A stretch of 64,000 nucleotides of DNA from Bacilli bacterium (GCA_022795155.1 JAAWGF010000004.1:1322-65321), one strand, 5' to 3'; shown: positions 25,415-51,805, numbered from the stretch's first letter. Made by a program: numbers and translations. Notes: a model not told the origin generated them from the sequence alone.

Positions 25415-25428
25415 TCTGTTTGTGTTAT

Positions 25429-25504: not shown

Positions 25505-25516
25505 TCTTATTTTTAT

Positions 25517-27434: not shown

Positions 27435-27443
27435 TCTTTTTTT

Positions 27444-27534
27444 GGAGAAATACCCAAGTCTGGTTGAAGGGACTGGTCTTGAAAACCAGGAGGTCGGCGA
27501 CGGCGCGGGGGTTCGAATCCCTCTTTCTCCGCCA
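27444..27534 (+). tRNA. tRNA-Ser (anticodon TGA)
   Basis: Acceptor GGAGAAA/TTTCTCC, anticodon arm CTGGT-CTTGAAA-ACCAG, long GC-rich variable arm, encoded CCA. Confidence 0.9.
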
Positions 27535-27548
27535 TAAAAATATAACAT

Positions 27549-27625
<77 letters not shown>

Positions 27626-27626
27626 T

Positions 27627-27702
27627 GGTTCCGTAGTGTAGCGGTTATCACGTCTGCCTGTCACGCAGAAGATCGCGAGTTCAATTCTCGTCGGAACCGC
27701 CA
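27627..27702 (+). tRNA. tRNA-Asp (anticodon GTC)
   Basis: Acceptor GGTTCCG/CGGAACC, anticodon loop CTGTCAC, encoded CCA. Confidence 0.9.
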
Positions 27703-27710
27703 TTTATTTT

Positions 27711-27786
27711 GGCTCTATAGCTCAGTCGGCAGAGCACAAGACTGAAAATCTTGGTGTCGGTGGTTCAATTCCACCTGGAGCCACCA
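27711..27786 (+). tRNA. tRNA-Phe (anticodon GAA)
   Basis: Acceptor GGCTCTA/TGGAGCC, anticodon loop CTGAAAA, encoded CCA. Confidence 0.9.
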
Positions 27787-27810
27787 TCTATAAATTGCAA
27801 ATAACTAAGT

Positions 27811-27887
27811 GCGCTCGTAGATCAATTGGATAGATCGTTTGACTACGGATCAAAAGGCTATGGGTTCGACTCCTATCGGGCGCACCA
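27811..27887 (+). tRNA. tRNA-Arg (anticodon ACG)
   Basis: Acceptor GCGCTCG/CGGGCGC, anticodon arm TTTGA-CTACGGA-TCAAA, encoded CCA. Confidence 0.9.
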
Positions 27888-27890
27888 CTT

Positions 27891-27967
27891 CGGGAAATAG
27901 CACAACTTGGTAGTGCACTTGGTTTGGGACCAAGGGGTTGCAGGTTCAAATCCTGTTTTCCCGACCA
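27891..27967 (+). tRNA. tRNA-Pro (anticodon TGG)
   Basis: Acceptor CGGGAAA/TTTCCCG, anticodon arm CTTGG-TTTGGGA-CCAAG, encoded CCA. Confidence 0.9.
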
Positions 27968-27975
27968 TCTAATAT

Positions 27976-28051
27976 GGGGAATTAGCTCAGCTGGGAGAGC
28001 GCCACGTTTGCACCGTGGAGGTCAGGAGTTCGATCCTCCTATTCTCCACCA
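27976..28051 (+). tRNA. tRNA-Ala (anticodon TGC)
   Basis: Acceptor GGGGAAT/ATTCTCC with the G3:U70 identity pair, anticodon loop TTTGCAC, encoded CCA. Confidence 0.9.
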
Positions 28052-32387: not shown

Positions 32388-32936
32388 ATGAGATGTATAA
32401 AGACGATTAAAGATGAAGAACTTGGATTTAATAGTATACCATTTAAAGAAGAATCAAGACGCTTTGGTTCAAGAGGAATTATATTAAATGACAATGATGA
32501 AATCGCCATGTTGTATATGAGGCATAAAGGCGTATATAAGTTAATTGGGGGCGGAATTGAAAAAGGAGAACAACCCCAAGATGCTTTTAAAAGAGAAGTT
32601 CTAGAAGAAACAGGATATAAGATAGAAATTGATGAATATATAGGAACCATCGACGAATTTAAATCCCAGATTAATTTTAAGCAAACTTCATATGTCTATA
32701 TTTCTCATATAATAGAAAATATTGGTTATACAAATTTAACAGAACAAGAAATAGATTCAGGATCAGAACTTTTATGGCTTAATGTAGACAATGCTATAGA
32801 GGCAATTATAAATAGTGAAGAATCGCTAGAATATTTAGAATTAGAAGAAGCATATCATCTTAAATTTATAGTTAAAAGGGACTATGAGATATTGCGTTAT
32901 TATAAGGATAATTATAGACATTTTTTAAAAAAATAG
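32388..32936 (+). CDS. NUDIX hydrolase
   Basis: Nudix box GGGIEKGEQPQDAFKREVLEETGY. Confidence 0.85.
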   Translation: MRCIKTIKDEELGFNSIPFKEESRRFGSRGIILNDNDEIAMLYMRHKGVYKLIGGGIEKGEQPQDAFKREVLEETGYKIEIDEYIGTIDEFKSQINFKQTSYVYISHIIENIGYTNLTEQEIDSGSELLWLNVDNAIEAIINSEESLEYLELEEAYHLKFIVKRDYEILRYYKDNYRHFLKK

Positions 32937-33679: not shown

Positions 33680-34045
33680 ATGTTATTACAGATTGGTGAG
33701 TTTTCTAAAAAAAGCGGTACATCTATTAGGACATTACGATATTATGATAAAATAGATTTATTTACAGGATATATATAGTAATGAACAAATAAATGATTTA
33801 GGACTTATAAATAAATTAAAATCTATAGGTTTTTGTTTAGCCGAAATAAAAAATATTTGAATAAATTTAACAACGAAATTATGTTACAAAAGCAACAAGA
33901 ACTGAAAGAACAATTAAAAAATTTAAATAAAAACATTAAGGAATTGGATTATTTACGAAGTCATATCATAAATGGGAAAATAATTGATAAATTGCCATCT
34001 GAATCGCATAAAATTAAATCACTATATAAGGAGGAAAATAGATGA
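33680..34045 (+). pseudogene. MerR-family transcriptional regulator, frameshifted
   Basis: Frame 1 reads MLLQIGEFSKKSGTSIRTLRYYDKIDLFTGYI then TAG (33776-33778). The next frame reads YSNEQINDLGLINKLKSIGFCLAEIKNI then stop. A third frame, entered in the A-run at 33848-33853, reads ...KYLNKFNNEIMLQKQQELKEQLKNLNKNIKELDYL (coiled coil). All three pieces are colinear with a MerR HTH plus dimerisation helix. Confidence 0.8.
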
Positions 34046-35106
34046 AAGATACAAATTTGATTATTGGTAAAAAAAATACAGGAAAAACGAGGAATATATT
34101 ATTTAAAGAGATAAATCAGTTAATAAGACAAAATGATAATTTACTAATTTATGATAATAGGGATGAATATTATCTAATGTTTTCAGAAAAATTAAAGGAA
34201 AACAATTATAATATTATTACGCTAAATTTACTTGATACTACAAAAACAAATGGCTATAACCCCCTTTTACTACCATATTTGTTATATAAGGAAAACACTA
34301 TTGATAAAGCGATGGGTATGATAAATGATTTAGCACTCGAAATTTTTAAATCAGATAACTCAAATATAGATCCATTTTGGGAAAATATGAGTGCTAATTA
34401 TTTTACAGGACTTGTTTTAATATTATTTAATGAAGCCAATAAAGAGGAAATTAATATTGGTAGTATACAAGTATTAATGAATCAAGGGGAGCTAAAACTA
34501 GATAATAGAACATATTTACAAAAATATTTGGAGGATATCGATGTTACAAACACAATTTATTCTTTATTATCACCAATAGTATTTGCACCATTTGATACAA
34601 AAGGAAGCATTATATCATTTGCTAAACAAAAATTAAATAATTATTTAATTCGTGAGCAATTATTAAATTTATTAAATACAAATGAGATAAATTTGCAAGA
34701 AATAAAGGAGAAAACTGCTATCTATATATTAGGAAACGAATCGATAAATCCTATTGCTAATATTTTTATTAATCAAATAATACAAAATGTTAATATTCCA
34801 TTTACGTTTGTTTTAGACAATTTTGATTCTTTAAAAAGATTGTCTAATTTTGATTATTTAATTAAAAATGCTAGTTATCTTCATCATAAAGTATATGTGG
34901 CTATTCATAATGAAAGTGAATTTAAAGAAAAATATGGTAAATATGTAATAGATAATTTTGAGAATATTATTAATTTAAATGAAGATCTTAATTTATCACA
35001 GGAATCAATTGATTTAGAAATAATTGGTAATGGTTATATATATCCAAAATTAAAACTTCAAAAACATAAATATTTTAATTTTAAATTATTTATTGATAGT
35101 AATTAA
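34042..35106 (+). CDS. VirD4/TraG (type IV coupling protein)-like P-loop NTPase, soluble and possibly degenerate
   Basis: GKKNTGKT (Walker A), NLLIYDNRDEYY..., ITLNLLDTTKTNGYNPL, DPFWENMSANYFTGL and FVLDNFDSL (Walker B position reads DNF rather than DEF) follow T4CP motif order. It has no TM domain. The start overlaps the MerR pseudogene stop (ATGA). Confidence 0.45.
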   Translation: MKDTNLIIGKKNTGKTRNILFKEINQLIRQNDNLLIYDNRDEYYLMFSEKLKENNYNIITLNLLDTTKTNGYNPLLLPYLLYKENTIDKAMGMINDLALEIFKSDNSNIDPFWENMSANYFTGLVLILFNEANKEEINIGSIQVLMNQGELKLDNRTYLQKYLEDIDVTNTIYSLLSPIVFAPFDTKGSIISFAKQKLNNYLIREQLLNLLNTNEINLQEIKEKTAIYILGNESINPIANIFINQIIQNVNIPFTFVLDNFDSLKRLSNFDYLIKNASYLHHKVYVAIHNESEFKEKYGKYVIDNFENIINLNEDLNLSQESIDLEIIGNGYIYPKLKLQKHKYFNFKLFIDSN

Positions 35107-36125: not shown

Positions 36126-36755
36126 ATGGAATATCTGGATATTTATGATGAAGATGGAAATCACTTGGGACATGAAAGCAGAGATGTGGTTCATAGAGAT
36201 GCTTTATGGCACAACACTGTCCATTGCTGGTTATATGATAAGGAAGGTAATATTTATTTTCAAATAAGTAAAGATGAACAAAAACTATATACAACAGCAT
36301 CTGGTCATGTTAAAGCTGGCGAAACTATCAAGGAAGCATTTGGTAGAGAGGTAAAGGAAGAAATTGGAATTAATATTAACTATGATAAGGCAATTTTTGT
36401 GAATGTATATAAATTTATTATGGACAAGAATAAAAATGATGGTACTTTATTTAGAGATCGAGCATTCTCTAATATTTATGTTTGTGTTTTTGATGGCGAG
36501 AATAATAATTTTTCATTTGATGATAATGAATTATCGGGGTTAGTCAAAATTAATGCTAAAGAAACATTGAATATTTTAAAGAATGAAAAGGGAAAACTAA
36601 ATGCCACAATTATTCAAAGTGAAAATAATGGTATTGTTGAGCATGAAAAACAAATTGAATTTAATGACTTTTTAGTTAATTATGGTGAAACAGCAATTAG
36701 CAAATATGGTGATGCATTAAGAAAAGTTATTGAGCTTACAAGTATTAATAATTAG
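36126..36755 (+). CDS. NUDIX hydrolase (YfcD-like)
   Basis: Nudix box ASGHVKAGETIKEAFGREVKEEIGI. AAGGAGG RBS. Confidence 0.85.
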   Translation: MEYLDIYDEDGNHLGHESRDVVHRDALWHNTVHCWLYDKEGNIYFQISKDEQKLYTTASGHVKAGETIKEAFGREVKEEIGININYDKAIFVNVYKFIMDKNKNDGTLFRDRAFSNIYVCVFDGENNNFSFDDNELSGLVKINAKETLNILKNEKGKLNATIIQSENNGIVEHEKQIEFNDFLVNYGETAISKYGDALRKVIELTSINN

Positions 36756-36809: not shown

Positions 36810-37502
36810 ATGGATTTTAGAATATATTTTATGCTTTTTATTGTGTACGCATTAATTGGTTGGATTGTAGAAGTAGTGGGAATTTTAATCCAAGAAAAAA
36901 AGTTTGTCAATCGAGGTTTTTTAATTGGCCCATATTGTCCAATATATGGTGTTGGCGGAATAACGATTATTCTCTTATTAAATAAATATATGGAAGACCC
37001 AATTATTTTATTTGTTATGGCTATTGTTATATGTTCGTTGCTAGAATATTTTACAAGTTATATAATGGAAAAATTATTTAAAACCAGATGGTGGGATTAT
37101 TCTAATTTTAAATTTAATATTAATGGGCGTATCTGTTTAGAAACAATGTGGGCTTTTGGAGCTTTAGCATGCTTTGTGATATATGTAATTAATCCTCCTT
37201 TAATTAATCTTTTAAAATCGTTGCCCAATATTGTTTTTAGCATAATTTCCTATTCAATAATGGTACTATTTTTAGTAGATAACATTATTTCATTTAAGAT
37301 AATTTCAAATGTAAAAGTAACAGCTAAAAATGTAAAGAAAGATAATACTGAAGAGATGACAAGATATGTTCGAGATGCGCTAAGCAAAAAATCATTGTTA
37401 AATAAACGTCTAATTAATGCATTTCCTAATTTACAGGCATGTATAAAAAATATAAAAAATGGTCTAAAAAGAGGACTAAATAATAATGGGAAAAAGAAAT
37501 AA
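36810..37502 (+). CDS. DUF1113 / putative ABC-transporter type IV (CmpB-like) membrane protein
   Basis: IGWIVEVVGILIQEKKFVNRGFLIGPYCPIYGVGG and LEYFTSYIMEKLFKTRWWDYS match the family signature from memory. Confidence 0.6.
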   Translation: MDFRIYFMLFIVYALIGWIVEVVGILIQEKKFVNRGFLIGPYCPIYGVGGITIILLLNKYMEDPIILFVMAIVICSLLEYFTSYIMEKLFKTRWWDYSNFKFNINGRICLETMWAFGALACFVIYVINPPLINLLKSLPNIVFSIISYSIMVLFLVDNIISFKIISNVKVTAKNVKKDNTEEMTRYVRDALSKKSLLNKRLINAFPNLQACIKNIKNGLKRGLNNNGKKK

Positions 37503-37535
37503 TTGTCATCAATTATTCTTTTTTTTTACTTATTT

Positions 37536-37544
37536 TGGTATAAT
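37536..37544 (+). promoter_or_regulatory. extended -10 element (TGGTATAAT) upstream of the TerB_N/ATPase/helicase operon
   Basis: TGnTATAAT lies 26 nt before ATG 37570. No good -35 is present, consistent with an extended -10 promoter. Confidence 0.4.
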
Positions 37545-37569
37545 AAGTTAAGAATGATTGGTGAGGTAT

Positions 37570-39348
37570 ATGAAATTTATTTCAATAATTGTTGGTATTA
37601 TCTTTTTTGTAATGCTTATTAAGGGATCAGTTGAAAATGGTCCTTGGACTATCTTAGTTTTATCGTTCATTATCGCAAGTATGATAAAAGATAAAAAGAA
37701 AAAAAGACGAAAGAAGTCAAAAACAAAAAAAATGCCTAATAAACGAACTAATTCTATAGAAAAGATAAACAATATTAAATTTAAGGATATGGAATTAAAT
37801 CCTAGTGATTATAAAAATTCTTATACAGCAGAACCAATAAATCAAACGGAGCAATTTTTAAAGGATAAAAAAGTTTTAAGCCAAATAAGGCAAATGAAAA
37901 CTATGTCTATAAGTAACCTTAATACTACATCTACACAAGAAAAGGCGTCTAAACTATTTTATCTTCAAGGGACATTTGTTGACGATCTTACTGATAACTA
38001 TAATATAAATATTCCTTGCGAATTTCATACACCGACTTATAATTCGCTAAATATTTATCAATTAAGAAGCTACTTTTCATGGCGAACTTTTATAAGAGAA
38101 GGTGATTTTAGGCCAACCGAAATTAGCTATATATACTTGTATATTTATGAATTGCTTAATGGTATAGGGATAAATAATAGTATTGATGGTTTAAACAAAT
38201 TATTAGAAATTTGGCATTACTATAGAAAATATGCCTCAAAGATGGATTTATATTTACCTAATTGGCTTAAAGATTATTACATAATTAATGATATAAAGAT
38301 TCCTTATCAAGATTTAGAAGTTGAATATCCAATTAAACCGAAAAATGCTCAAGCATTAATTAATGAAATAATACTTGGCAATTATGAAAATAAATTAAAA
38401 TTTTATGATTGTGAATCTGAATACCATATCCTAAAAAGTAAAATAATGGAACATAAATATAGTTTTATTATTGAAATGGTTATTCCTACTATTTTTGCCA
38501 ATTTGGATAAGCATTTTAATATGTACGGTTATGCATTTAATGAAATTCTTTTTGGTAGTATTAAGCGAATTGATTGGGAGCCTTTTAAAGGCGCGATTTA
38601 TTATCATAATCCTACTATTAGAGACTTTAATGTTTCTTTAAATGAAAATGAAAAATATTTTAAAATTCAAAATAAATATTATAAAGAGATTTTCGTTAAA
38701 TCGTCATATTATAATTCGCTAATGGGATATATTTTGAAAAATATTGATATAACCCTTCGTGAATGCTTTAAGATGTCCAGAAATTTGAAAATAAATAATA
38801 ATATGCTCGATGATGTTTTTAAAAACGATAAAAAACTATATGAATTTTTAACAAATGGAAAAATTATCGATATCATAAATATAACAATAAAAAAATATTT
38901 AATTGAGAATAAAACAGAGATTAATAATATTATTACTGAACAAAGGAAAAAAAATATTATTATAGATTCGAATAAATTTAATAATATTAGAGAGTCATCA
39001 AACCGTGTTCAAGAAAAATTAATTATTGAAGAAGAGGGAGAAATAAAATCGATATTTAAAGAGCCCGAAGAAATTGTTAATGGATCAAATGATATTTTTG
39101 AAAATTTAATCGCTAGTTTAAATAAAGCTGAATTAGAATTCGTCAAAAAAATAGTTGCTTTAGATAATAGAGATAATTTAATTAATTATTGTAAAGAAAA
39201 TAATATACTATATGAAGTTATGCTTGAAAATATTAATAGTAAGGCTCTAGAAACGATTGGTGACAATTTAATTGAAGATTATGGTGATGAAATAATTATA
39301 TATGCTGAATATATCGAATCGGTAAGCCAAGAATTAGGAGGTAATTAA
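37570..39348 (+). CDS. membrane-anchored TerB_N / TerB_C domain protein (Shango SngA-like)
   Basis: Two N-terminal TM helices plus the polybasic tract KDKKKKRRKKSKTKK. TPTYNSLNIYQLRSYFSWRTFIREGDFRPTEISYIYLYIYELLNGIG fits the TerB_N core (YxxL..QL..Y..WR......SYvFLYiYEL.N). The C-terminus IIIDSNKFNNIRESSNRVQEKL ... ILYEVMLENINSKALETIGDNLIEDYGDEIII fits TerB_C. GGTGAGG RBS. Confidence 0.7.
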   Translation: MKFISIIVGIIFFVMLIKGSVENGPWTILVLSFIIASMIKDKKKKRRKKSKTKKMPNKRTNSIEKINNIKFKDMELNPSDYKNSYTAEPINQTEQFLKDKKVLSQIRQMKTMSISNLNTTSTQEKASKLFYLQGTFVDDLTDNYNINIPCEFHTPTYNSLNIYQLRSYFSWRTFIREGDFRPTEISYIYLYIYELLNGIGINNSIDGLNKLLEIWHYYRKYASKMDLYLPNWLKDYYIINDIKIPYQDLEVEYPIKPKNAQALINEIILGNYENKLKFYDCESEYHILKSKIMEHKYSFIIEMVIPTIFANLDKHFNMYGYAFNEILFGSIKRIDWEPFKGAIYYHNPTIRDFNVSLNENEKYFKIQNKYYKEIFVKSSYYNSLMGYILKNIDITLRECFKMSRNLKINNNMLDDVFKNDKKLYEFLTNGKIIDIINITIKKYLIENKTEINNIITEQRKKNIIIDSNKFNNIRESSNRVQEKLIIEEEGEIKSIFKEPEEIVNGSNDIFENLIASLNKAELEFVKKIVALDNRDNLINYCKENNILYEVMLENINSKALETIGDNLIEDYGDEIIIYAEYIESVSQELGGN

Positions 39349-39349
39349 A

Positions 39350-40672
39350 ATGGGAGAAGTTGTACCTAAAAGAATAGCAACCATGCTTATGAATGCTTTA
39401 AAAGGAGGCGTTGTGCCAAGAACGGGATTAGGATATATTGCGGTAGGACGTGAAAATGAAATTAACGCTTTATTAAATGATGTATCAATTATTGAAGATG
39501 GTGGAGCAACATTTCGTTTTGTTGTTGGTAAATATGGTAGTGGCAAAAGTTTTTTATTACAAACAATTAGATCACATGTTATGGAAAAAGGTTTTGTGGT
39601 TATTGACGCTGACCTTTCACCAGATCGCCGATTAGTTGGAAATAAAGGTCAAGGTTTGGCAACCTACCAGGAATTAATTCAAAATATGTCGACAAAGACA
39701 CGACCTGATGGCGGTGCTTTACCACTTATCTTAGAGCGTTGGATAGCTAGTGTTCAAAATGAGGTTTTAGAGGAATATCATATTACACCAAGTGATATTA
39801 AATTTAGTAGTTTGATGGAAACAAAAATATATGAAAAAACTAGTTGTATTGATGGTTTGGTTCATGGGTTTGAATTTGCTAAGGTCATAAATATTTATTT
39901 TAGCGGTTATTTAGATTCTAATGATGAACAGAAAAATAGAGCTTTAAAATGGCTTAGGGGAGAATATAATAATAAAACTGAAGCTAAAAATGAACTAGGC
40001 ATTAATCTAATTATATCTGATGAAGATTGGTATGAATATATTAAAATATTTGCACAGTTTATGGTTATGGCTGGATATAAGGGTATGATGTTATTAATTG
40101 ATGAATTAGTTAATATCTATAAAATCCCTAATCAAATAGCTAGACAGTATAATTATGAAAAAATTTTAACTTTATATAATGATACTTTACAAGGTAAGGC
40201 TAAATATTTGGGGATTATTATGAGTGGTACTATTCAATGTGTTGAAGATACTAAAAGAGGAATTTTTAGTTATGAGGCTTTAAAGTCTCGTTTAGAGGAT
40301 AGTCGTTTTGCCAATAATTCATGCCGTGATTTTTTGGCTCCAATTATTAGATTAGAAGCCCTAACACCTGAAGAGATGACTATCTTGGTAGAAAAATTAA
40401 CTAATATTCATTGTGATTTATATAATTATCAAACTTCTATTACGGAACAGGATATGATAGAATTTATTAAAGCGGAATATGCGAGAATTGGTGCTGATAG
40501 CCATATTACACCAAGAGAAGTAATTAGAGATTATATAGAGTTATTAAATACTTTGTATCAATATCCTGATAAAAAACTATTAGAAATTATCAATGGTGAA
40601 GATTTTAAATATTCTATTTCTACAACTAATGATGAAGAGATTAACATGGAATTTGCGGATTTTGAATTATGA
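39350..40672 (+). CDS. DUF2791 (BrxC/BrxD-type) P-loop ATPase (Shango SngB-like)
   Basis: RTGLGYIAVGRENEI...FRFVVGKYGSGKSFLLQ (Walker A), GMMLLIDELVNIY (Walker B). It starts 1 nt after the upstream stop with GGAGG in the upstream gene's end. Confidence 0.7.
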   Translation: MGEVVPKRIATMLMNALKGGVVPRTGLGYIAVGRENEINALLNDVSIIEDGGATFRFVVGKYGSGKSFLLQTIRSHVMEKGFVVIDADLSPDRRLVGNKGQGLATYQELIQNMSTKTRPDGGALPLILERWIASVQNEVLEEYHITPSDIKFSSLMETKIYEKTSCIDGLVHGFEFAKVINIYFSGYLDSNDEQKNRALKWLRGEYNNKTEAKNELGINLIISDEDWYEYIKIFAQFMVMAGYKGMMLLIDELVNIYKIPNQIARQYNYEKILTLYNDTLQGKAKYLGIIMSGTIQCVEDTKRGIFSYEALKSRLEDSRFANNSCRDFLAPIIRLEALTPEEMTILVEKLTNIHCDLYNYQTSITEQDMIEFIKAEYARIGADSHITPREVIRDYIELLNTLYQYPDKKLLEIINGEDFKYSISTTNDEEINMEFADFEL

Positions 40673-42801
40673 AAACTAATACTTTTTCTAAGTTAGCGCC
40701 ATTCATTCAAGATTATATTTATAAAAATAATTGGACTGATTTAAGAGATATCCAAGTTGCTAGCTGTGATGTTATCTTTAATAGTGATGCCAATTTATTA
40801 TTAACTTCATCAACGGCGTCTGGAAAAACAGAGGCAGCCTTTTTGCCCGTCCTTACCGATATATATAATAATCCAGCAAAGTCTGTTAGCATTTTATATA
40901 TTAGTCCTTTAAAAGCTTTAATTAACGATCAATTTACCAGACTAAAAGATCTTTTAGAAGAAGCAGAATTATCTGTTACTAAATGGCATGGAGATTCTAG
41001 TCAAAATAAAAAAGATAAAATTCTTATTAATCCCAATGGTATCATTCAAATAACACCTGAATCATTAGAAGCATTAATTATGAATAAACCAAATGATGTA
41101 TATACAATTTTTAATGATTTAAGATATATTATAATTGATGAAGTTCATTACTTTATTGGAACTGAACGTGGTATTCAGTTGGAATCATGTCTTACCAGAT
41201 TATCAAGAATTATAAATAAGATTCCAAGAAGAGTTGGGCTTTCTGCTACGCTTGGTGACTATAAAGAGGTCGAAAAATGGCTAAATAGTGGAACAAATCG
41301 TGAATGTATAACCCCAATTGTGGCTAGTGGTAAGCGAACTATTAGTTTAGCAATTGAAAGTTTTGATGATAAAGCAGACTTTTATAATTCATTATATACA
41401 TCATCATTAAACCAAAAATGCATAATTTTTTCCAATTCTCGATCTAATGTTGAAGAAAATATTTCTTCATTAAAAGAAATAGCCAAAGAAAAAAAGACCG
41501 ATGACATCTATTATACACATCATGGAAGCGTTAATACCTCTCTAAGGGAACAAACAGAAGATTTAATGAAAAATACGGATAAAAAAATTGTTACTGGTGC
41601 TACACTAACTTTAGAACTAGGTATTGATTTAGGAAATTTAGATAGAATTATTCAGACTTCGACGCCATTTAGTGTTTCTAGTTTTGTTCAAAGGTTGGGG
41701 CGGACTGGAAGACGTGGCAATAAAGCAATTATGCAGTTTTTATTTGATAAAAGTGAAAAAGAAAAAAGTGAAAATTTTTATGAGAATATTGATTTTGATA
41801 TTATTATGTGTATTGCTATTATTGAAATATATTTAAAAGAAAAATGGGTTGAACCAATGCTTATTCCTAAATATCCATATGAAATCTTGTATCATCAAAC
41901 ATTGAGTTATATAACATCAATCCAAAGTATTCAACCCAAAAAATTAGCTGAGTATATGCTTACTATTGATATATTTAAAGATATTACTAAAGAAGATTAT
42001 AAAATGCTTTTAAATCATTTATTAGAAATAGGGCATTTAGCTCTTACAGATTCTCAGGAGCTAATAATTGGTAGTGATATTGATAAAATGATTAATAATT
42101 ATAAATTTTTTTCAGTATTTCAAAATAAGTTAGAATATATTGTTTATGGTGATTCAAAACAAATAGGAACAATTACTGAAAGTATAAAAGTTGGCGAAAA
42201 ATTAAAATTAGCTGGTCGAACTTGGGAAGTAACAAGTATTGATAATGATAAATTTAAAATATATACTAAATTAAGTAGCGGTACTTCTAATAATATTTGG
42301 AAATCAGATGCTGAAACTAATATTGATTTTAAAATAATTCATAAAATATATGAAATATTAAATGGTAATGAAGAATATATCTATTTGCAAGATAATGTAA
42401 AGTCATTATTAAAAACTAATCGTGAAATTTTTAGTAAAAATAAGTTAAATAATAAAATGCTAGTTTCTTGTGGTGATGATAAAATTATTTTTCCATGGCT
42501 TGGGACAAAATCTTTACTGACATTATCATATATTTTAAAGAGTGAAGGTATTAATAATAATATTTTAAAATGTAATGGGATACCTATAGGTTTAAAAATA
42601 GACAATTTAATAACAGAGATTTGGTTAAAAAAGATTGTCGAGAAAATATTAAATAATAAAATTACAATTGATGAAATTAAACTAAATGATTTTAATATAA
42701 ATAAAAAATATAGTGAATTTATTCCTGATGAACTAAAAGAAAAGGAATTTAGATATGACTATCTAGATTTAGAAAAATTAAAAGAAGAAATAAATCTTTA
42801 A
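40669..42801 (+). CDS. Lhr-like DEAD/DEAH-box SF2 helicase (Shango SngC-like)
   Basis: DLRDIQ (Q-motif), SSTASGKTEAAFLP (I), YISPLKALINDQ (Ia), IIDEVHYF (II), GLSATLG (III), QRLGRTGRRG (VI), and a C-terminal extension of about 300 aa. ATGA start/stop overlap with the ATPase gene. Confidence 0.8.
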   Translation: MKTNTFSKLAPFIQDYIYKNNWTDLRDIQVASCDVIFNSDANLLLTSSTASGKTEAAFLPVLTDIYNNPAKSVSILYISPLKALINDQFTRLKDLLEEAELSVTKWHGDSSQNKKDKILINPNGIIQITPESLEALIMNKPNDVYTIFNDLRYIIIDEVHYFIGTERGIQLESCLTRLSRIINKIPRRVGLSATLGDYKEVEKWLNSGTNRECITPIVASGKRTISLAIESFDDKADFYNSLYTSSLNQKCIIFSNSRSNVEENISSLKEIAKEKKTDDIYYTHHGSVNTSLREQTEDLMKNTDKKIVTGATLTLELGIDLGNLDRIIQTSTPFSVSSFVQRLGRTGRRGNKAIMQFLFDKSEKEKSENFYENIDFDIIMCIAIIEIYLKEKWVEPMLIPKYPYEILYHQTLSYITSIQSIQPKKLAEYMLTIDIFKDITKEDYKMLLNHLLEIGHLALTDSQELIIGSDIDKMINNYKFFSVFQNKLEYIVYGDSKQIGTITESIKVGEKLKLAGRTWEVTSIDNDKFKIYTKLSSGTSNNIWKSDAETNIDFKIIHKIYEILNGNEEYIYLQDNVKSLLKTNREIFSKNKLNNKMLVSCGDDKIIFPWLGTKSLLTLSYILKSEGINNNILKCNGIPIGLKIDNLITEIWLKKIVEKILNNKITIDEIKLNDFNINKKYSEFIPDELKEKEFRYDYLDLEKLKEEINL

Positions 42802-42934
42802 GGCAACTTAAAGATTTAATTATTATTGAAAAGATATATGTTTAATAGTGTAAAATGCATTAATATTTGAAGTAAAACCATTGATATAAAATATTTTTAA
42901 TGATAAAATATAGCGAGTTAGAAGTGGTGAATTT

Positions 42935-44872
42935 ATGATGTATATTCCAAAAATTGTTGGCCCATGTAACGGTTCAAAAAAAGCCATAGATATAATATAC
43001 AATTTATATGAACGTGAAAGAAAGAAAAAAAATCCTAAACGAATTGTTATATATAAAGAAATTCTTCATAATAAAAATATAATCGAAGATCTAAAAAATA
43101 AAAAGATAGAATGCATTAATTCATTACAAGAAATAGATAAAAATACTATTGTCATAATACGGGCTCATGGTGAAAGTGAGGATATATATAATTATTTAAA
43201 AGAAAATGTGATTGAGTATTATGATGCCACTTGTGTTAATGTTTTACAAACACATGATATTATCTGCCAAAAATATTACCAAAACTATGATATTGTTATA
43301 ATTGGCGAAAAGTTAAAAGATGGTGGCTATCATCTAGAAGTCATGGGTTCAAACGGCTGGTGTCAATATAATGCCAAAATAATTTCTAATTTATTTGAAG
43401 TTGACAATTTGGATATTGTCAAAAATGATATCTTAGTTGTTTGTCAAACAACATTTAATGAAAATGATGCATTATTAATTGCAGACAAAATAAAGAAAAT
43501 ATATCATAAAAAAAATATTGAATTTATTAATACAACTTGTAAAGGACCCAAATTAATTCAAAAATATGCTTTAGAAATTGCCAAAAAATGTGACTACATG
43601 GTTATAATTGGTGGCAAAAATAGTCATAATACAAATGAATTATATAAGCTTTGTAATGAGGTAACACCGAGTATTAAAATATTCAATTTGGGCGAGTTAT
43701 ATGAATGGCTAAATAAAACCGATATTAATGAATCTACCAATATTGGAATAACAGGTGGGGCTTCTGTACAAGAGAAAGAAATTCAAGAATGTAGGCAACT
43801 CATAGAATTTTATCTTTTTTATAAAAAGGAAAAAGCTATTATAGAAAAATATATTAATGACTATAATAAAAAATTTTTAGATAAAAAAGATAATTCAATA
43901 GTCCAGGACGCAATAAAAAAATTTATTAAGGTCAATACATCAGGCAAATATTTGCGTTCCATTTTATTAAGTTTAGGATATAAAATTGCAAGTGGCCAAA
44001 ATGATGATTTTTATATTCCATTAGCAATGGCATGCGAAACTTTTCAAACATCGATTTTAATTCATGATGATATTATTGATAACGCTACTAAAAGACGTGG
44101 TATGGATACTATTCCCACAGTCTACAAACATCAGTTTAAAAGTAAAAATGGTAAGAAAAGTAATATTGTTGCAAATTCACTTGGCATTTGTATTGGTGAT
44201 TTAGGATTATATTTAGCTAATGATATTATTTTAAAGAATTATCAACATAATGCCAATTTATGTAAAATATTAGAATACTATAATAAAGTAATTGTTAATA
44301 CCATCAAAGGAGAAATTATTGATGTAAAATTACCTTATAATCTACAATATGAAAAGGTTAAGACTTGCAAAGAATCGGATATAATGGAAATGTATTATTT
44401 AAAAACAGCTTGGTATACAACAATTGGCCCCTTTTGTTTAGGATGCCTATTAGCTGATAATAATAGAATAGAAATAGACGAATATGAGATTATATTTAAA
44501 AACTTGGGGGTTGCTTTTCAAATAAAAGATGATATAATTGGTATTTATGGTGACTCAAATTATATAGGGAAACCGACTAATTCAGATATCAGTGAATTCA
44601 AGCAAACAATCCTTTATTCTTATGTTTATAATCATAAAGGAAAATATTTGAAAAATTTACATAAGTTTTATGGCAAAGCCAATGTCACAGAAAGTGATGT
44701 TGAGGAGGTCAAAAAAATTTTTATTGAATCTGGTGCTTTAGAATATGCTAGAGAAAAAATGGATAATTTATTTGATGAAAGTATTAAGCAAATAAAAAAG
44801 TTTAATAATTTAGGTAAATATCAAAATATTCTTTTAGGATTGATTAATTATCTTAGAATTAGACAAAAATAA
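42935..44872 (+). CDS. ispH: fusion protein: IspH (HMBPP reductase) domain + trans-polyprenyl diphosphate synthase domain
   Basis: N-terminal half: three IspH cluster cysteines in context (VGPCNGS, YDATCVNV, NTTCKGP), plus ILHN, RAHGES, YHLEVMG, VCQTT, GGKNSHNTNEL. C-terminal half: FARM LIHDDIIDNATKRRG and SARM FQIKDDIIGIYGD. It is a single uninterrupted 645-codon ORF. Confidence 0.75.
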   Translation: MMYIPKIVGPCNGSKKAIDIIYNLYERERKKKNPKRIVIYKEILHNKNIIEDLKNKKIECINSLQEIDKNTIVIIRAHGESEDIYNYLKENVIEYYDATCVNVLQTHDIICQKYYQNYDIVIIGEKLKDGGYHLEVMGSNGWCQYNAKIISNLFEVDNLDIVKNDILVVCQTTFNENDALLIADKIKKIYHKKNIEFINTTCKGPKLIQKYALEIAKKCDYMVIIGGKNSHNTNELYKLCNEVTPSIKIFNLGELYEWLNKTDINESTNIGITGGASVQEKEIQECRQLIEFYLFYKKEKAIIEKYINDYNKKFLDKKDNSIVQDAIKKFIKVNTSGKYLRSILLSLGYKIASGQNDDFYIPLAMACETFQTSILIHDDIIDNATKRRGMDTIPTVYKHQFKSKNGKKSNIVANSLGICIGDLGLYLANDIILKNYQHNANLCKILEYYNKVIVNTIKGEIIDVKLPYNLQYEKVKTCKESDIMEMYYLKTAWYTTIGPFCLGCLLADNNRIEIDEYEIIFKNLGVAFQIKDDIIGIYGDSNYIGKPTNSDISEFKQTILYSYVYNHKGKYLKNLHKFYGKANVTESDVEEVKKIFIESGALEYAREKMDNLFDESIKQIKKFNNLGKYQNILLGLINYLRIRQK

Positions 44873-48700: not shown

Positions 48701-51700
48701 TTATGGCTCTATATCTTTTAATTTATTATCTAATATTGAATAAAGATAAATATTAACTCTTTTCTTTGCTTTTTTTTCAATATAATCTTTATATCCTAAC
48801 AATTGCTTATGATAAGCTATATCATCAATATTTTTAAATTTATAATCAATTATATCAATATAATCATCACGTTCAATCATTAAGTCAATTATCCCATGTC
48901 TCTTTATTCCGTCACAAATTTCCATAAATTCATACTCTTTATAAATAGTAGCCTTATCTAAATTATTAAAAATATCTAAATTAAGAAAATTTATAATATG
49001 TTGCTTATAAAAACTATCTATTTCATAATTATCTATATCTTTCTTTTTAAAATCAATGTTTTCTAATATATAATGTAAATAAGTACCCATGTGCATTTTC
49101 TTCTGTTCTTGTTTAGAAATAAAATGTGTATTTACCTTTGAATAAGTATCTTTTTTTTCTATCGCTTTATTAATTCTTAATTCAGTCATCATAAGTGGTT
49201 CTTTATTGGTTATAAATTTATTTAAATCAGTTATTTTTTTATTTAAATTATACCCATGTGAAAGATAAATGCTATTAAAATCAATTAATTTTTGATAAGG
49301 TCTTAAATCATCATTTAAAAAATTCAACATATCTAAAAATGAACGGAATTTTATTTTATCCTTTTTTATTAAACAATTATCATTTAACTCAGCTACTAAA
49401 ATCATTTGTTCTTTAGCTCTTGTTAATGCAACATAAAACAATCTAATTTTCTCGGATATTTCTTCCTCTATATACTTATTTTTTAATAGATACTTAAAAA
49501 TAGTTTTACCAATTCCTTCTTTAAAATAAGGTGTAATAATTCCATAATCTTTATCAAATAGAAATTTTTCATTTAAGTCTCTTAAATTAAATTCTTTATA
49601 TAATAAAGGGAAATAGCACAAACTAAATTCTAATCCCTTAGAGGCATGAATCGTCATTATTTGAACACTGTTAGGACTTTCTTTAGAAAGAGAAAATCTA
49701 ATATTATAATCATTTTTAATTAATTCATTTAAATAATTACTAAATTTCTCAATTGTGAAGCCTAATCCATCTAAATTGTTAGCTAAATCACATAAATAAT
49801 CAATTCTAATCATTCTATTTTGAACATAACCTAATTTAATCAAATTGTCAAAGAAATTAAAACTGCTTAATATCTCATTTATCAACATACTATTTGTATA
49901 AGTATCTAGATGTTTACTTAAAACTCTTAATTTTATATATAAATCATTATCCATAAAATTATCATTGTTAAACATCTCAAAAATAACATCATCAGTATAT
50001 GCCACAACAAAGCTACGAGCAATACTTGTAAATAAATATTTAAATTCAGTATCAAAAACATTATCTCTAATTTTAATTATTAACTTAATAATATTTTTAA
50101 TAACGACTATTTCTGTTCCACTATTTAAATTTTCGTCTTTATAAATTGTTAAAGGAATTTTCATAAACTCAAATATTTTTTTAAATAAATCAAAATTAGT
50201 TGCTCGATCAACTAAGATAGCAAAATCTTTGAATGTGCAGTCCCTTAACATAGAAGTTTCTTTATCAACAACTTGATATTTATTTTTTAGTTTATATAGA
50301 ATGTCATTAGCTATGATGAATACTTCTAATTCATCTTTAGTAAATCCCATATCCTTATCATAATTATAATTTAAAATATTCATATTATAATTTTTATTAC
50401 CTAACATTTTATCATAATTTTTATTACCATAGACCATCTCATGACCATTATTATAATTAGCCCCACCTAATGACGCTGTCATTAATTTTGAAAAGAGTAA
50501 ATTTATATTATTTAGGACTTCTTCTCTAGAACGGAAGTTTTTATTTAAGTCTATTTTAAGACTAAATTTATCTTTAGAATAGTTATCATATTTTCTTTTA
50601 AATAAATATGGATTAGCATTTCTAAAACGATAAATTGATTGCTTTATATCACCGACCATATAGACATTATTATCGCTAATTAAAGCAATTATTTTCTCTT
50701 GTATATCATTGGTATCTTGATACTCATCAATCATAATTTCTTGGTATTGCTTTTTAATTTCTAAACAAATATCTGGATTATTTTCTAAAATATTTATAAG
50801 TAACATTGATATATCATTAAATTCAAAAAGATTATATGTTCTTTTATAAATATCTAATTCTTTATCTAATCTTAAAATAATTTTAATAATGATTTTAGTA
50901 TAATCTTCTGTTGACAAAATAGATTCTCTAATTTCTTCTATATTATCATATATACTAATTTCTTGAATATCTTTTATTATTTCACTAATATTTTCTTTTA
51001 GATATTTTAAATCGCCATCGCTATTTTTAGGTAAATTAGCAAGCCTCAATTGTAAATTTTGTTTTATTTCATCATAATTATGAGCTTCCAATAGAGGAGA
51101 TAAAGTTTCATTTAATTTTATATAATAATCATAATCAATATTAGAGATATCTTCTAAGTAATTAGATATTTGGCCATTTTTAGATATAATTAAATCCTCA
51201 AATATTTTAATACTTTTATTAATATAATCATCTTTAAAAAACTTATTTATATAATTATCTAAATAGTCTTTTTTATTTATTAATAAGCTAACATTATGAT
51301 AAATCGACAAAATACCGGTTTTTAAGTCATTATCATCTTTAACACAAAAATCATTAACCAATTTGATAAAATTAGGCTCTTTATCTTTATATAAGTCTTC
51401 AAAAATGTTTTCTATAATTTCTTTACTTTGTAAGAAAATTAAGCTATCATCGGCAATGTCAATATGCTTTGGGAGATTTAATAAATAATGATATTTTTTT
51501 AAAATAGAAAGGGCAAAACTATCGAATGTGGTAATATAAGCTTGATTGATTAATGTTAATTGTTTTTTTAATTCAGGATATCCTTTAAGAGCTTTTCTAA
51601 TTCTTTCACGCATTTCATTAGCCGCTTTATTTGTAAATGTCAAAATTAATAATTCATTAATATTAACGCCAGCTTTTATTTTCCGAATGACTCTTTCAGT

Positions 51701-51805
51701 TAAGACGGCCGTTTTACCACTACCAGCCCCGGCACTTACAATAATTGATTTTTTATCTTCATTTATGGCCGTTAATTGCTCACTAGTCCATTTCATTTTT
51801 TTCAC
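48701..51805 (-). CDS. addA: ATP-dependent helicase/nuclease AddA
   Basis: UvrD-type motifs WTSEQLTAIN, VSAGAGSGKTAVLTERV, MIDEYQDTN, and a C-terminal RecB nuclease GIIDLMIERDDYIDIIDYK. It is downstream of addB with overlap. Confidence 0.9.
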   Translation of the reverse strand: MKKMKWTSEQLTAINEDKKSIIVSAGAGSGKTAVLTERVIRKIKAGVNINELLILTFTNKAANEMRERIRKALKGYPELKKQLTLINQAYITTFDSFALSILKKYHYLLNLPKHIDIADDSLIFLQSKEIIENIFEDLYKDKEPNFIKLVNDFCVKDDNDLKTGILSIYHNVSLLINKKDYLDNYINKFFKDDYINKSIKIFEDLIISKNGQISNYLEDISNIDYDYYIKLNETLSPLLEAHNYDEIKQNLQLRLANLPKNSDGDLKYLKENISEIIKDIQEISIYDNIEEIRESILSTEDYTKIIIKIILRLDKELDIYKRTYNLFEFNDISMLLINILENNPDICLEIKKQYQEIMIDEYQDTNDIQEKIIALISDNNVYMVGDIKQSIYRFRNANPYLFKRKYDNYSKDKFSLKIDLNKNFRSREEVLNNINLLFSKLMTASLGGANYNNGHEMVYGNKNYDKMLGNKNYNMNILNYNYDKDMGFTKDELEVFIIANDILYKLKNKYQVVDKETSMLRDCTFKDFAILVDRATNFDLFKKIFEFMKIPLTIYKDENLNSGTEIVVIKNIIKLIIKIRDNVFDTEFKYLFTSIARSFVVAYTDDVIFEMFNNDNFMDNDLYIKLRVLSKHLDTYTNSMLINEILSSFNFFDNLIKLGYVQNRMIRIDYLCDLANNLDGLGFTIEKFSNYLNELIKNDYNIRFSLSKESPNSVQIMTIHASKGLEFSLCYFPLLYKEFNLRDLNEKFLFDKDYGIITPYFKEGIGKTIFKYLLKNKYIEEEISEKIRLFYVALTRAKEQMILVAELNDNCLIKKDKIKFRSFLDMLNFLNDDLRPYQKLIDFNSIYLSHGYNLNKKITDLNKFITNKEPLMMTELRINKAIEKKDTYSKVNTHFISKQEQKKMHMGTYLHYILENIDFKKKDIDNYEIDSFYKQHIINFLNLDIFNNLDKATIYKEYEFMEICDGIKRHGIIDLMIERDDYIDIIDYKFKNIDDIAYHKQLLGYKDYIEKKAKKRVNIYLYSILDNKLKDIEP

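What the first reader, a model, noticed from the sequence alone, without database searches (positions are those of the whole stretch)
37536..42801. Three-gene TerB_N/TerB_C - DUF2791 ATPase - Lhr-like helicase operon (Shango-type anti-phage system), membrane-anchored variant
The three genes are translationally coupled, with a 1-nt gap between the first two and an ATGA overlap between the last two, and sit behind an extended -10 promoter. (1) The first is a 592-aa protein with two TM helices, a polybasic juxtamembrane tract, a TerB_N-like core (YQLRSYFSWRTF...ISYIYLYIYELLNGIG) and a TerB_C-like tail (NIRESSNRVQEKL ... MLENINSKALETIGDNLIEDYGDEIII). (2) The second is a P-loop ATPase of DUF2791/BrxC-BrxD type (GKYGSGKS; LLIDELV). 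(3) The third is a 710-aa SF2 helicase with all of motifs Q, I, Ia, II (DEVH), III and VI, plus a long C-terminal extension. This triad was predicted computationally as a TerB-associated DNA-processing/stress system (Anantharaman, Iyer and Aravind 2012). It was later shown to protect against phage as Shango, SngABC (Millman et al. 2022; Johnson et al. 2023), and its mechanism is still unknown. What stands out here is the explicit membrane anchoring of the TerB_N protein. I also could not recognise a central TerB core, only the TerB_N and TerB_C flanks. The host lineage is an AT-rich spore-former, far from the E. coli and Pseudomonas examples. The system is embedded between a decayed mobile-looking patch and an isoprenoid fusion gene.
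Basis: partly seen in the sequence, partly recalled or inferred. Interest (0 to 1): 0.8.

Follow-up and report, generated by a model that had tools for sequence, protein, structure and literature searches.

The report
Ordinary Shango anti-phage operon, membrane-tethered
This is an intact copy of the already known three-gene Shango anti-phage system in an uncultured gut Bacilli bacterium.

Summary
The three genes exist exactly as described: sngA 37570-39348, sngB 39350-40672 and sngC 40669-42801, all on the + strand. They match the PADLOC SngA, SngB and SngC models nearly end to end (E = 1e-55, 7e-183, 5e-215), so this is a Shango system.

SngA has an N-terminal two-helix hydrophobic hairpin followed by a tract with 14 Lys/Arg in 23 residues. 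This is not a distinctive variant. Shango SngA from E. coli, Klebsiella, Cetobacterium and Bacillus cereus also starts with hydrophobic helices (the first three followed by a polybasic or basic tract; B. cereus has a Pfam TM2 domain). So do 20 of 150 diverse representatives.

The missing central TerB domain (PF05099) is real. It is the norm for the short Firmicutes-type SngA (0 of 65 representatives), whereas the Klebsiella and Cetobacterium proteins have it.

"Spore-former" is unverified. The source is a "Bacilli bacterium" metagenome-assembled genome (MAG).

The mildly unusual point is the setting. The operon is not in a defence island. It sits at one syntenic site, always just after a CmpB-family membrane-protein gene, across at least seven species. 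Its synonymous divergence equals that of its flanks, and it is under strong purifying selection.

The mechanism remains unknown. My best guess is that membrane-tethered SngA recruits an ORC/Cdc6-like loader (SngB) and an Lhr-like helicase (SngC) onto incoming DNA.

The parts
36810..37502 (+). CmpB-family (PF06541) membrane-protein gene. It is the conserved immediate upstream neighbour of Shango in this clade. It is not shown to be part of the system.
   Evidence: Pfam 7e-51. It is adjacent to sngA in every clade locus that extends far enough upstream of sngA, even where the outer flanks differ. CmpB homologues of ~60% identity in other lineages have no Shango next to them. No PADLOC hit.
37494..37528 (+). 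Hairpin plus U-run, a likely intrinsic terminator of the CmpB gene. It marks the upstream boundary of the Shango transcription unit.
   Evidence: -5.5 kcal/mol, z = -2.6, followed by U9. The stem is kept through compensatory or wobble changes in related loci.
37536..37544 (+). Extended -10 promoter element TGGTATAAT.
   Evidence: Read from the sequence. TTTTG(G/A)TATAAT is conserved in all 10 aligned loci, including the most distant, L038 and L048. This is a consensus match plus conservation; no transcription data exist.
37560..37566 (+). Ribosome-binding site GGTGAGG for sngA.
   Evidence: It is conserved as GGTGAGG, GGTGAGA or GGTGATA in eight of the ten aligned loci; L038 has GGTGCAA and L048 has no clear match.
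37570..39348 (+). sngA, 592 aa. Membrane-tethered TerB_N/TerB_C protein with no PF05099 TerB domain.
   Evidence: PADLOC SngA 1.4e-55, residues 95-587 against profile 68-525/528. Pfam TerB_N and TerB_C. AlphaFold2 mean pLDDT 79.
37573..37695 (+). N-terminal hydrophobic helical hairpin of SngA (residues 2-42).
   Evidence: Hydropathy peaks. AlphaFold2 helices 2-22 and 26-42. Conserved in all homologues of 53% identity or more and absent from Clostridia/Spirochaete SngA.
37687..37755 (+). Polybasic juxtamembrane tract (residues 40-62; 14 K/R, 1 D/E), which starts a disordered linker running to about residue 90.
   Evidence: pLDDT is below 50 for residues 40-90.
37879..38295 (+). TerB_N domain (residues 104-242).
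   Evidence: Pfam PF13208, 1e-22. Family-invariant residues R166, W171, R172, Y191 and E194.
38296..38934 (+). Central alpha/beta region of SngA (residues 243-455). No Pfam family and no structural relative were found.
   Evidence: No Pfam hit even at E <= 10. High pLDDT, with strands at 329-377. No Foldseek match at E below 0.9. R397 is invariant, and E393 is invariant or nearly so, across the family alignments.
38935..39324 (+). TerB_C domain (residues 456-585), ending in a winged-helix-like module (about residues 509-590).
   Evidence: Pfam PF15615, 1.9e-13. Foldseek local matches to LysR/MarR DNA-binding domains, probability 0.8-0.98 and E about 0.4-1, so weak.
39336..39341 (+). AGGAGG ribosome-binding site for sngB, lying inside the 3' end of sngA.
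39350..40672 (+). sngB, 440 aa. BrxC_BrxD/DUF2791 (ORC/Cdc6-type AAA+) ATPase with Walker A at residues 60-67 and Walker B near 247-255.
   Evidence: PADLOC SngB 7.1e-183; BrxD only 4.8e-42. Pfam PF10923 5.7e-159. Motifs. dN/dS 0.04-0.05.
40669..42801 (+). sngC, 710 aa. Lhr-like SF2 DExH helicase with a winged-helix domain and a BrxHI-like C-terminal region.
   Evidence: PADLOC SngC 4.9e-215; BrxHI 2.7e-124 end to end. Best PDB relatives are mycobacterial Lhr structures 5v9x and 7lhl. WH_Lhr scores 28.1 bits on the isolated C-terminal half.
42791..42818 (+). Stem-loop overlapping the sngC stop codon, a likely operon terminator.
   Evidence: -12 kcal/mol, z = -6.2, 0 of 200 shuffles as stable. 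It is followed by A/U-rich sequence rather than a clean U-run.

Best explanation
This is an intact, expressed-looking Shango (SngABC) system. It is a member of a known anti-phage family whose mechanism has not been solved.

What the sequence shows:
- One transcription unit with its own conserved extended -10 promoter, flanked by hairpin terminators.
- Three tightly coupled genes.
- SngA is a TerB_N/TerB_C protein. An N-terminal hydrophobic hairpin holds it at the inner face of the membrane, followed by a ~50-residue disordered basic linker. The positive-inside rule puts the rest of the protein in the cytoplasm.
- SngB is a stand-alone ORC/Cdc6-class AAA+ ATPase of the BrxD type.
- SngC is an Lhr-like 3'-5' DExH helicase with winged-helix and BrxHI-like C-terminal DNA-binding parts.

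Inferred mechanism (about 35% confidence, no step tested):
1. SngA acts as the membrane-proximal sensor or scaffold. It evolves fastest of the three, consistent with contact with variable invader features.
2. On sensing DNA entry or an envelope perturbation, it licenses SngB.
3. SngB loads or activates SngC on incoming phage DNA, much as ORC/Cdc6 proteins load helicases.
4. SngC translocates and unwinds DNA or DNA:RNA intermediates. This blocks replication or circularisation, or exposes the DNA to host nucleases such as AddAB, which is encoded 6 kb away. None of the three proteins contains a recognisable nuclease.
For: Identity:
- PADLOC SngA, SngB and SngC hits at 1.4e-55, 7.1e-183 and 4.9e-215, each near full length and each the top hit.
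- Matching Pfam domains.
- Gene order and coupling.
- The same triad appears in all 35 loci recovered with SngB, where the contig allows.

Functional maintenance:
- dN/dS is 0.04-0.05 for SngB, 0.07-0.09 for SngC and 0.14-0.23 for SngA.

Membrane tether:
-.
- It recurs in Shango of E. coli, Klebsiella, B. cereus and Cetobacterium, and in 20 of 150 representatives. The five TM-type representatives whose context I checked were all followed by SngB-like and helicase genes.

Loader and helicase idea:
- SngC is closest to Lhr in the PDB.
- SngB and SngC also match BrxD and BrxHI.
- A 2026 comparative study classes BrxD as an ORC/Cdc6 AAA+ ATPase and proposes that it loads BrxHI (PMC12839542).

Membrane surveillance was already suggested for TerB systems (Millman preprint). 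Phage protection by Shango has been shown in P. aeruginosa and E. coli.
Against: - No experiment exists for this locus or for any Firmicutes-type Shango.
- The tested systems gave only modest protection, 10- to 100-fold.
- No effector domain was identified.
- The SngA core has no relative in the PDB or BFVD, so its sensing role is guesswork.
- About two dozen Clostridia/Spirochaete Shango systems have a soluble SngA, so a membrane tether cannot be essential to the core mechanism.
- The locus is not in a defence island and behaves like a core gene block, which is atypical for defence genes.
- The hydrophobic helices are short (about 15 residues), and no TM predictor was run.
Confidence: 0.85

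Rival explanations
1. In this gut Bacilli lineage the SngABC block, possibly together with the adjacent CmpB membrane protein, is a vertically inherited housekeeping or stress module. It would carry out membrane-coupled DNA processing or repair, as first proposed for TerB-associated triads, rather than act as a dedicated phage-defence system.
For: - The syntenic position is the same across seven GTDB species representatives and several metagenome contigs.
- dS of the sng genes (0.75-1.03) equals that of the flanking CmpB and IspH-IDS genes (0.66-1.05), and dN/dS is 0.04-0.23.
- No empty site was found: 3 of 3 CmpB homologues at 64% identity or more, chosen without regard to Shango, have it downstream.
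- The flanks hold no other defence systems.
Against: - Homologous systems restrict phage experimentally.
- In other taxa the system sits in defence islands or on plasmids, next to restriction-modification systems, AAA_15/21 ATPases, SNF2 helicases and toxin-antitoxin genes.
- The Clostridia relatives are not syntenic with this window's flanks.
- SngA evolves fastest, as expected of a defence sensor.
- Long retention of a defence system at one site is unusual but not impossible.
- Sampling of the clade is limited.
Confidence: 0.1
2. Shango works by abortive infection through the membrane. On activation, the SngA hairpin and polybasic region perturb the membrane, and the ATPase and helicase act only as sensors.
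For: - N-terminal hydrophobic segments recur across Shango.
- Other TerB-containing systems (Bunzi, Dionysus) pair TerB with membrane or pore-forming parts.
- No nuclease effector was found.
Against: - One or two short helices with no pore-forming or oligomerisation domain make a poor effector.
- Many Shango systems have a fully soluble SngA.
- P. aeruginosa cultures carrying Shango were protected across a broad range of phage doses, which argues somewhat against pure abortive infection.
Confidence: 0.05
3. The locus is a remnant or sub-module of a type 2 BREX (Pgl) system, because SngB and SngC resemble BrxD and BrxHI.
For: PADLOC BrxD at 4.8e-42 and BrxHI at 2.7e-124, the latter over the full length. 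NCBIfam BREX_BrxD scores 147 bits.
Against: - The Sng models score far higher: 607 against 143 bits, and 715 against 414 bits.
- NCBIfam BrxD is far below its 350-bit cut-off.
- No PglZ, PglX, BrxC or PglW lies in the scanned flanks, about 9 kb upstream and 5 kb downstream.
- A TerB_N/TerB_C gene precedes the pair, as Shango requires.
Confidence: 0.01

Closest known systems
Shango (SngABC) of E. coli and P. aeruginosa (Millman et al. 2022; Johnson et al. 2023), as modelled in PADLOC-DB 2.0
   Same: - The three genes are in the same order, and all three PADLOC models match near full length.
- SngA has TerB_N and TerB_C.
- SngA has an N-terminal hydrophobic anchor followed by a polybasic tract, also present in E. 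coli and Klebsiella SngA.
- The genes show tight translational coupling.
   Different: - Sequence is distant: SngB is 38-39% and SngC 29-30% identical to the E. coli and Klebsiella proteins.
- SngA is shorter (592 against 769 aa) and lacks the PF05099 TerB domain found in the Klebsiella and Cetobacterium proteins.
- The anchor is a two-helix hairpin rather than one helix.
- The operon sits in a conserved core-like site rather than a defence island or plasmid.
- I could not check whether the exact experimentally tested proteins carry the anchor.
Firmicutes-type short Shango (Clostridia and Bacilli metagenome genomes; B. cereus plasmid p1)
   Same: - SngA has TerB_N and TerB_C and lacks PF05099 (0 of 65 representatives have it).
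- SngB is 59-64% identical.
- The operon layout is the same.
   Different: - Clostridia and Spirochaete SngA is soluble. It starts with a short helix and a Y-x-DEPI motif.
- The window protein keeps that motif (YTAEPIN, residues 85-91) but has about 80 extra N-terminal residues (hairpin plus basic linker).
- B. cereus uses a different anchor, a Pfam TM2 domain.
BrxD-BrxHI dyad of type 2 BREX / Pgl
   Same: An ORC/Cdc6-type AAA+ ATPase sits next to an Lhr-like helicase with a winged-helix and an Lhr-like C-terminal domain. The literature proposes a loader-helicase relationship.
   Different: There is no methyltransferase, PglZ, BrxC or PglW. The partner is a TerB_N/TerB_C protein instead. The BREX-specific models score much lower.
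Lhr / Lhr-core DNA repair helicases (e.g. Mycobacterium smegmatis Lhr, PDB 5v9x)
   Same: It is the best solved-structure relative of SngC (6e-32). SngC has a DExH core and a WH_Lhr domain.
   Different: Only the helicase core aligns at sequence level. The C-terminal 320 residues have no PDB sequence match. SngC scores far below the NCBIfam Lhr-type cut-offs and is encoded in a three-gene defence operon.
Other TerB-containing defence systems (Bunzi, Dionysus) and the ter tellurite-resistance operon
   Same: They share a link to the TerB domain superfamily and a suggested membrane association.
   Different: Those systems carry the TerB domain proper (PF05099), which is absent here. They have different partner genes, namely pore-forming or TM proteins and TerC/D/Z.

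Membership tests
Shango (SngABC) | SngA: a protein with TerB_N and TerB_C domains that matches the SngA model | tested here: met
   PADLOC SngA 1.4e-55, 188 bits, residues 95-587 against profile 68-525/528. Pfam TerB_N 81 bits and TerB_C 51 bits, both above their gathering scores.
Shango (SngABC) | SngB: a DUF2791/BrxC_BrxD-family ATPase that matches the SngB model, with an intact Walker A and B | tested here: met
   PADLOC SngB 7.1e-183, 4-438 against 5-437/439. PF10923 530 bits. GKYGSGKS and LLIDE motifs present.
Shango (SngABC) | SngC: an SF2 DEAD/DEAH helicase that matches the SngC model | tested here: met
   PADLOC SngC 4.9e-215, 1-706 against 1-715/720. DEAD and Helicase_C domains. Motifs I, II (DEVH), III and VI present.
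Shango (SngABC) | The three genes are adjacent and co-oriented in the order A-B-C | tested here: met
   A 1-nt gap and a 4-nt overlap. The same order holds in related loci.
Shango (SngABC) | Protects cells against phage | not testable with these tools
   Shown only for P. aeruginosa PA14 and E. coli systems. No data exist for this lineage.
Long (enterobacterial/fusobacterial) SngA subtype | A central TerB domain (PF05099) between TerB_N and TerB_C | tested here: not met
   No PF05099 hit in the whole protein at E <= 0.1 or in the central region at E <= 10. No TerB fold among Foldseek hits. It is present in Klebsiella (31.7 bits) and Cetobacterium (26.3 bits) SngA and absent in 65 of 65 short-type representatives.
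BREX type 2 (Pgl) | Core genes BrxC/PglY, PglX methyltransferase and PglZ, together with PglW, BrxD and BrxHI | tested here: not met
   Only BrxD-like and BrxHI-like similarity was found, weaker than to the Sng models. Flanking genes are CmpB, NUDIX, IspH-IDS, GDSL and TraB.
Lhr-core helicase family (for SngC) | A DExH SF2 core followed by the Lhr winged-helix domain | tested here: inconclusive
   The best PDB hits are Lhr. WH_Lhr scores 26.4 bits in the full protein, below the gathering score of 27, and 28.1 bits on the isolated C-terminal half. NCBIfam Lhr-type models are far below their cut-offs.
Defence-island / mobile-element cargo | Variable presence between close relatives, neighbours that are other defence or mobility genes, and divergence out of step with the flanks | tested here: not met
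   Synteny is conserved and dS equals that of the flanks. No empty site turned up in CmpB-anchored look-ups. The flanks have no convincing PADLOC systems. No close relative was found in viral contigs. Sampling is limited.

The most novel reading that the evidence does not exclude
In this uncultured gut Bacilli clade, Shango is not sporadic defence cargo. It is a lineage-fixed, vertically inherited block that always lies directly downstream of a CmpB-family membrane-protein gene, even where the genes on both outer sides have changed.

The most novel reading is one of two things. Either CmpB is a fourth, membrane-embedded partner, such as a docking site or sensor for the SngA hairpin. Or Shango here has been taken over for a housekeeping role in membrane-coupled DNA processing.
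Probability: 0.12. Interest if true: 0.55.

Novelty: new member of a known kind. Interest (0 to 1): 0.22.

Why it matters
As a discovery it matters little. Standard tools (PADLOC, DefenseFinder) would call this locus Shango.

Two by-products are useful for people working on the unsolved Shango mechanism.
1. An N-terminal membrane anchor is widespread in SngA across phyla, including E. coli; in the enterobacterial and Cetobacterium proteins, as here, a polybasic or basic tract follows it. The papers I could read do not mention it for Shango. This gives concrete support to the 'membrane surveillance' idea, and it is easy to test with truncation and localisation experiments.
2. This clade offers a natural case of long-term vertical retention of a defence system under strong purifying selection, next to one particular membrane-protein gene. 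That could point to a partner or to a non-defence role.

Tried and rejected
- Central TerB core: I scanned the whole protein and the isolated central region against Pfam, up to E = 10, and ran Foldseek on a confident AlphaFold2 model. Nothing was found.
- Solved-structure relatives of SngA, SngB and the SngC C-terminal half by sequence: none.
- Foldseek of the SngA model against PDB and BFVD: only weak local winged-helix matches.
- Phage-borne relatives: a viral-contig scan with SngB found none.
- Empty-site search: a metagenome-contig scan with the IspH-IDS fusion returned one irrelevant locus. I replaced it with CmpB-anchored look-ups.
- BREX type 2 remnant and ter-operon readings: rejected on gene content and scores.
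- Alternative genetic code: TGA is used once among 38 stop codons. I rejected code 4 because all long genes are intact under table 11 and SngB ends where the profile ends.
- CmpB co-transcribed with sngA: unlikely, given a conserved terminator hairpin and a conserved promoter between them.
- I did not model SngB or SngC, because no allowed homologue set was available for an alignment.

Full report
**1.

The window has three co-oriented ORFs on the + strand:
- 37570-39348, 592 aa from the ATG. An in-frame TTG at 37558 would give 596 aa.
- 39350-40672, 440 aa.
- 40669-42801, 710 aa.

The first stop and second start are separated by one base, with a perfect AGGAGG 8 nt upstream of the second ATG. 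The second and third genes overlap in ATGA. TGGTATAAT lies at 37536-37544 and GGTGAGG at 37560-37566.

The quoted motifs are all present:
- GKYGSGKS at SngB residues 60-67, and MMLLIDE at 247.
- DEVH at SngC residue 157, SAT at 192 and QRLGRTGR at 341.

In SngA, two hydrophobic stretches (about residues 3-17 and 25-39) are followed by 14 Lys/Arg in residues 40-62. An AlphaFold2 model built from 41 homologues has mean pLDDT 79. It gives helices 2-22 and 26-42, then a disordered linker to about residue 90.

**2. What it is**

Profile searches leave little doubt.
- PADLOC gives SngA 1.4e-55, SngB 7.1e-183 and SngC 4.9e-215. Each is the best hit and each is near full length.
- Pfam gives TerB_N plus TerB_C for the first protein, BrxC_BrxD (530 bits) for the second, and DEAD, Helicase_C and a borderline WH_Lhr for the third.
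- The closest solved structures to SngC are mycobacterial Lhr, 5v9x and 7lhl.
- SngB and SngC also match BrxD and BrxHI of type 2 BREX, but much more weakly, and no other BREX gene is nearby.

So the locus is a Shango system. Shango protects against phage in E. coli and P. aeruginosa. Its mechanism was still described as unknown in every paper I could find, up to 2026.

**3. The transcription unit**

I aligned the CmpB-sngA spacer from ten related loci.
- A hairpin plus T-run sits just after the upstream gene. Its stem is kept by compensatory and wobble changes.
- The TTTTG(G/A)TATAAT box is invariant, and a GGTGAGG, GGTGAGA or GGTGATA ribosome-binding site is kept in eight of the ten loci.
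- The window hairpin folds at -5.5 kcal/mol (z = -2.6) and is followed by nine U.
- A much stronger stem-loop overlaps the sngC stop codon: -12 kcal/mol, z = -6.2.

The three genes therefore look like a self-contained operon.

**4. The 'membrane-anchored variant' claim**

The anchor is real, and within this clade it is conserved. All 120 listed homologues down to 53% identity keep the hairpin and the basic tract.

Among 35 genome loci recovered with SngB, only the close Bacilli MAG clade has it. About two dozen Clostridia and Spirochaete SngA proteins are soluble. An alignment shows that the hairpin and linker are an N-terminal addition of about 80 residues. They sit in front of a conserved Y-x-(D/E)-P-I motif, which the window protein retains as YTAEPIN.

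The anchor is not peculiar to this locus, though.
- In a search of 1.84 billion representatives, 2249 proteins matched the SngA core. Of the best 150, 20 have N-terminal hydrophobic segments and 17 have two.
- I looked up the genomic context of five of these, and all are followed by SngB-like and helicase genes.
- A Klebsiella plasmid SngA is the strongest match to the PADLOC model that I found (350 bits). It starts MELLKFLAAIFVIYLLFFRKKKRKSPKS.
- An E. coli chromosomal SngA (WP_000424706.1) starts MELWIFIVAIYLIYILFFKKKKTKSAGS and lies next to a type I restriction gene.
- That gene family occurs in 445 of 5426 complete E. coli genomes.
- B. cereus SngA begins with a Pfam TM2 domain, and Cetobacterium SngA with a single hydrophobic helix.

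A hydrophobic anchor is therefore a common, repeatedly used feature of Shango, including in the species where the system was defined. In the enterobacterial and Cetobacterium proteins, as here, a polybasic or basic tract follows it. The papers I read do not mention it for Shango. I could not check the exact proteins that were tested.

**5. The missing TerB core**

- There is none in the full protein, and none in the isolated central region even at E <= 10.
- No TerB fold appears among the Foldseek matches of the model.

This is the norm for the short Firmicutes-type SngA. Of 65 diverse representatives, 65 have TerB_N, 63 have TerB_C and none has PF05099. The longer Klebsiella and Cetobacterium proteins do have it, between the central region and TerB_C.

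The central alpha/beta region (residues about 243-455) is confidently modelled. It carries residues that are invariant or nearly so across the family (E393, R397), yet it has no relative in the PDB or BFVD. The C-terminal ~80 residues resemble a winged helix, though only weakly.

**6. Host and setting**

The exact proteins come from MAGs labelled 'Bacilli bacterium' (MCI8777878-80). Related loci are labelled Bacilli, Bacillales or 'Tenericutes' MAGs.

The window is ordinary chromosome. It holds two tRNA clusters, the start of a 16S rRNA gene, SecA, a Ca-ATPase, AddAB and a Ctp protease. I saw no sporulation gene among those scanned, so 'spore-former' is unverified.

The flanks hold no convincing defence system.

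The 'mobile-looking patch' is a 354-aa fragment of a type IV coupling protein, 2.4 kb upstream. It is present in some relatives and absent in others, while Shango stays.

**7. The one unusual feature**

Across seven GTDB species representatives and several metagenome contigs the order CmpB - SngA - SngB - SngC is kept in every locus that reaches far enough upstream, usually followed by IspH-IDS, GDSL and TraB.

In more distant members (L038, L048, L049) both outer flanks differ, but CmpB-SngABC remains.

I chose CmpB homologues without regard to Shango.
- At 64-87% identity, 3 of 3 had Shango immediately downstream.
- At about 60% identity, in other lineages, 2 of 2 did not.

Synonymous divergence of the sng genes (0.75-1.03) equals that of CmpB and IspH-IDS (0.66-1.05). 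This argues for co-divergence rather than recent transfer.

dN/dS values are as follows:
- SngB 0.04-0.05
- SngC 0.07-0.09
- SngA 0.14-0.23
- CmpB 0.07-0.13
- IspH-IDS 0.11-0.25

SngB stays 82-94% identical where CmpB falls to 56% and SngA to 45%. A defence system that behaves like a core gene block is uncommon.

Whether CmpB is a partner is open. Conserved adjacency speaks for it. A conserved terminator and promoter between the genes speak against it, as does the absence of CmpB next to other TM-type Shango systems.

**8. Mechanism (inference)**

The positive-inside rule puts the SngA domains in the cytoplasm, tethered by a flexible basic linker.

SngB belongs to the BrxD class, described as a stand-alone ORC/Cdc6 AAA+ ATPase and proposed as a loader of the Lhr-like BrxHI helicase (PMC12839542). 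SngC is the BrxHI/Lhr-like partner.

My best guess, at about 35% confidence, runs as follows:
1. SngA acts as a membrane-proximal sensor or scaffold that licenses SngB.
2. SngB loads SngC on entering foreign DNA.
3. Unwinding blocks replication or circularisation, or feeds host nucleases. No nuclease is encoded in the operon, and AddAB is encoded nearby.

The existence of soluble SngA in many systems shows that tethering modulates the mechanism rather than defining it.

**9. Verdict**

The feature put forward as special is shared with the canonical systems. This is a new member of a known kind with low interest. It leaves a modest lead in the lineage-fixed CmpB-Shango block, and a useful general note that Shango SngA is often membrane-anchored.

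Noticed in passing
window 36810-37502 (and L002-L006, L038, L044-L049): A CmpB-family (PF06541) membrane-protein gene always lies directly upstream of the TM-type Shango in this clade, even where the outer flanks differ. CmpB homologues of ~60% identity in other lineages are followed by a pseudouridine synthase instead.
   Followed up: partly
window 42935-44872: A single 645-aa ORF fuses IspH/LytB (PF02401) with a polyprenyl synthase (PF00348). The fusion is conserved at 59-84% identity in related species.
   Followed up: partly
window 34042-35106: A 354-aa fragment of a type IV secretion coupling protein (T4SS-DNA_transf), preceded by a 70-aa ORF. It is present in L003 and absent in L002 and L044, so it looks like a variable remnant of a conjugative element that is unrelated to Shango.
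   Followed up: partly
whole window: Among ORFs of 200 aa or more, the stop codons are TAA 26, TAG 11 and TGA 1. That single TGA is the sngB stop inside the ATGA overlap. Long genes are intact under table 11, so this is codon bias and not a recoded genome.
   Followed up: partly
L005 14126-18150: In one related species, about 5 kb is inserted between sngC and IspH-IDS. It encodes a 1170-aa ResIII/DEAD helicase with eight HA (PF03457) repeats, plus a 150-aa HA-domain protein. There is a weak PADLOC match to a type IV methyl-directed restriction enzyme model. The site may be able to accept defence-like cargo.
   Followed up: partly
proteins P0294, P0301, P0141, P0134-P0147: The SngA family includes radical-SAM (PF04055)-TerB_N-TerB_C fusions, a 1385-aa member with HNH_repeat inserts, and many members of 900-1300 aa with long uncharacterised N-terminal regions.
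   Followed up: no
L041 2672-5630; L049 6562-7864: There are examples of decaying or mis-assembled Shango. In L041 SngA is split into separate TerB_N and TerB_C ORFs and the helicase is fragmented. In L049 SngB is split in two. A Klebsiella plasmid (L054) keeps only sngB between transposases.
   Followed up: no
window 32388-32936 and 36126-36755: There are two NUDIX hydrolase genes within 4 kb upstream of the operon. Both give weak PADLOC PDC-S07 hits (1e-8 and 1e-5).
   Followed up: no
window 48701-54179 (- strand): AddA- and AddB-like helicase-nuclease genes lie 6 kb downstream of Shango. AddA scores 461 bits and AddB only 84 bits, both below the NCBIfam cut-offs, so they are divergent.
   Followed up: no
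window 25166-25589, 27346-28048, 63453-64000: There are two tRNA gene clusters (5 and 8 tRNAs), and the 5' 506 positions of a 16S rRNA gene at the window's end. The 16S piece could be used to place the organism taxonomically.
   Followed up: no
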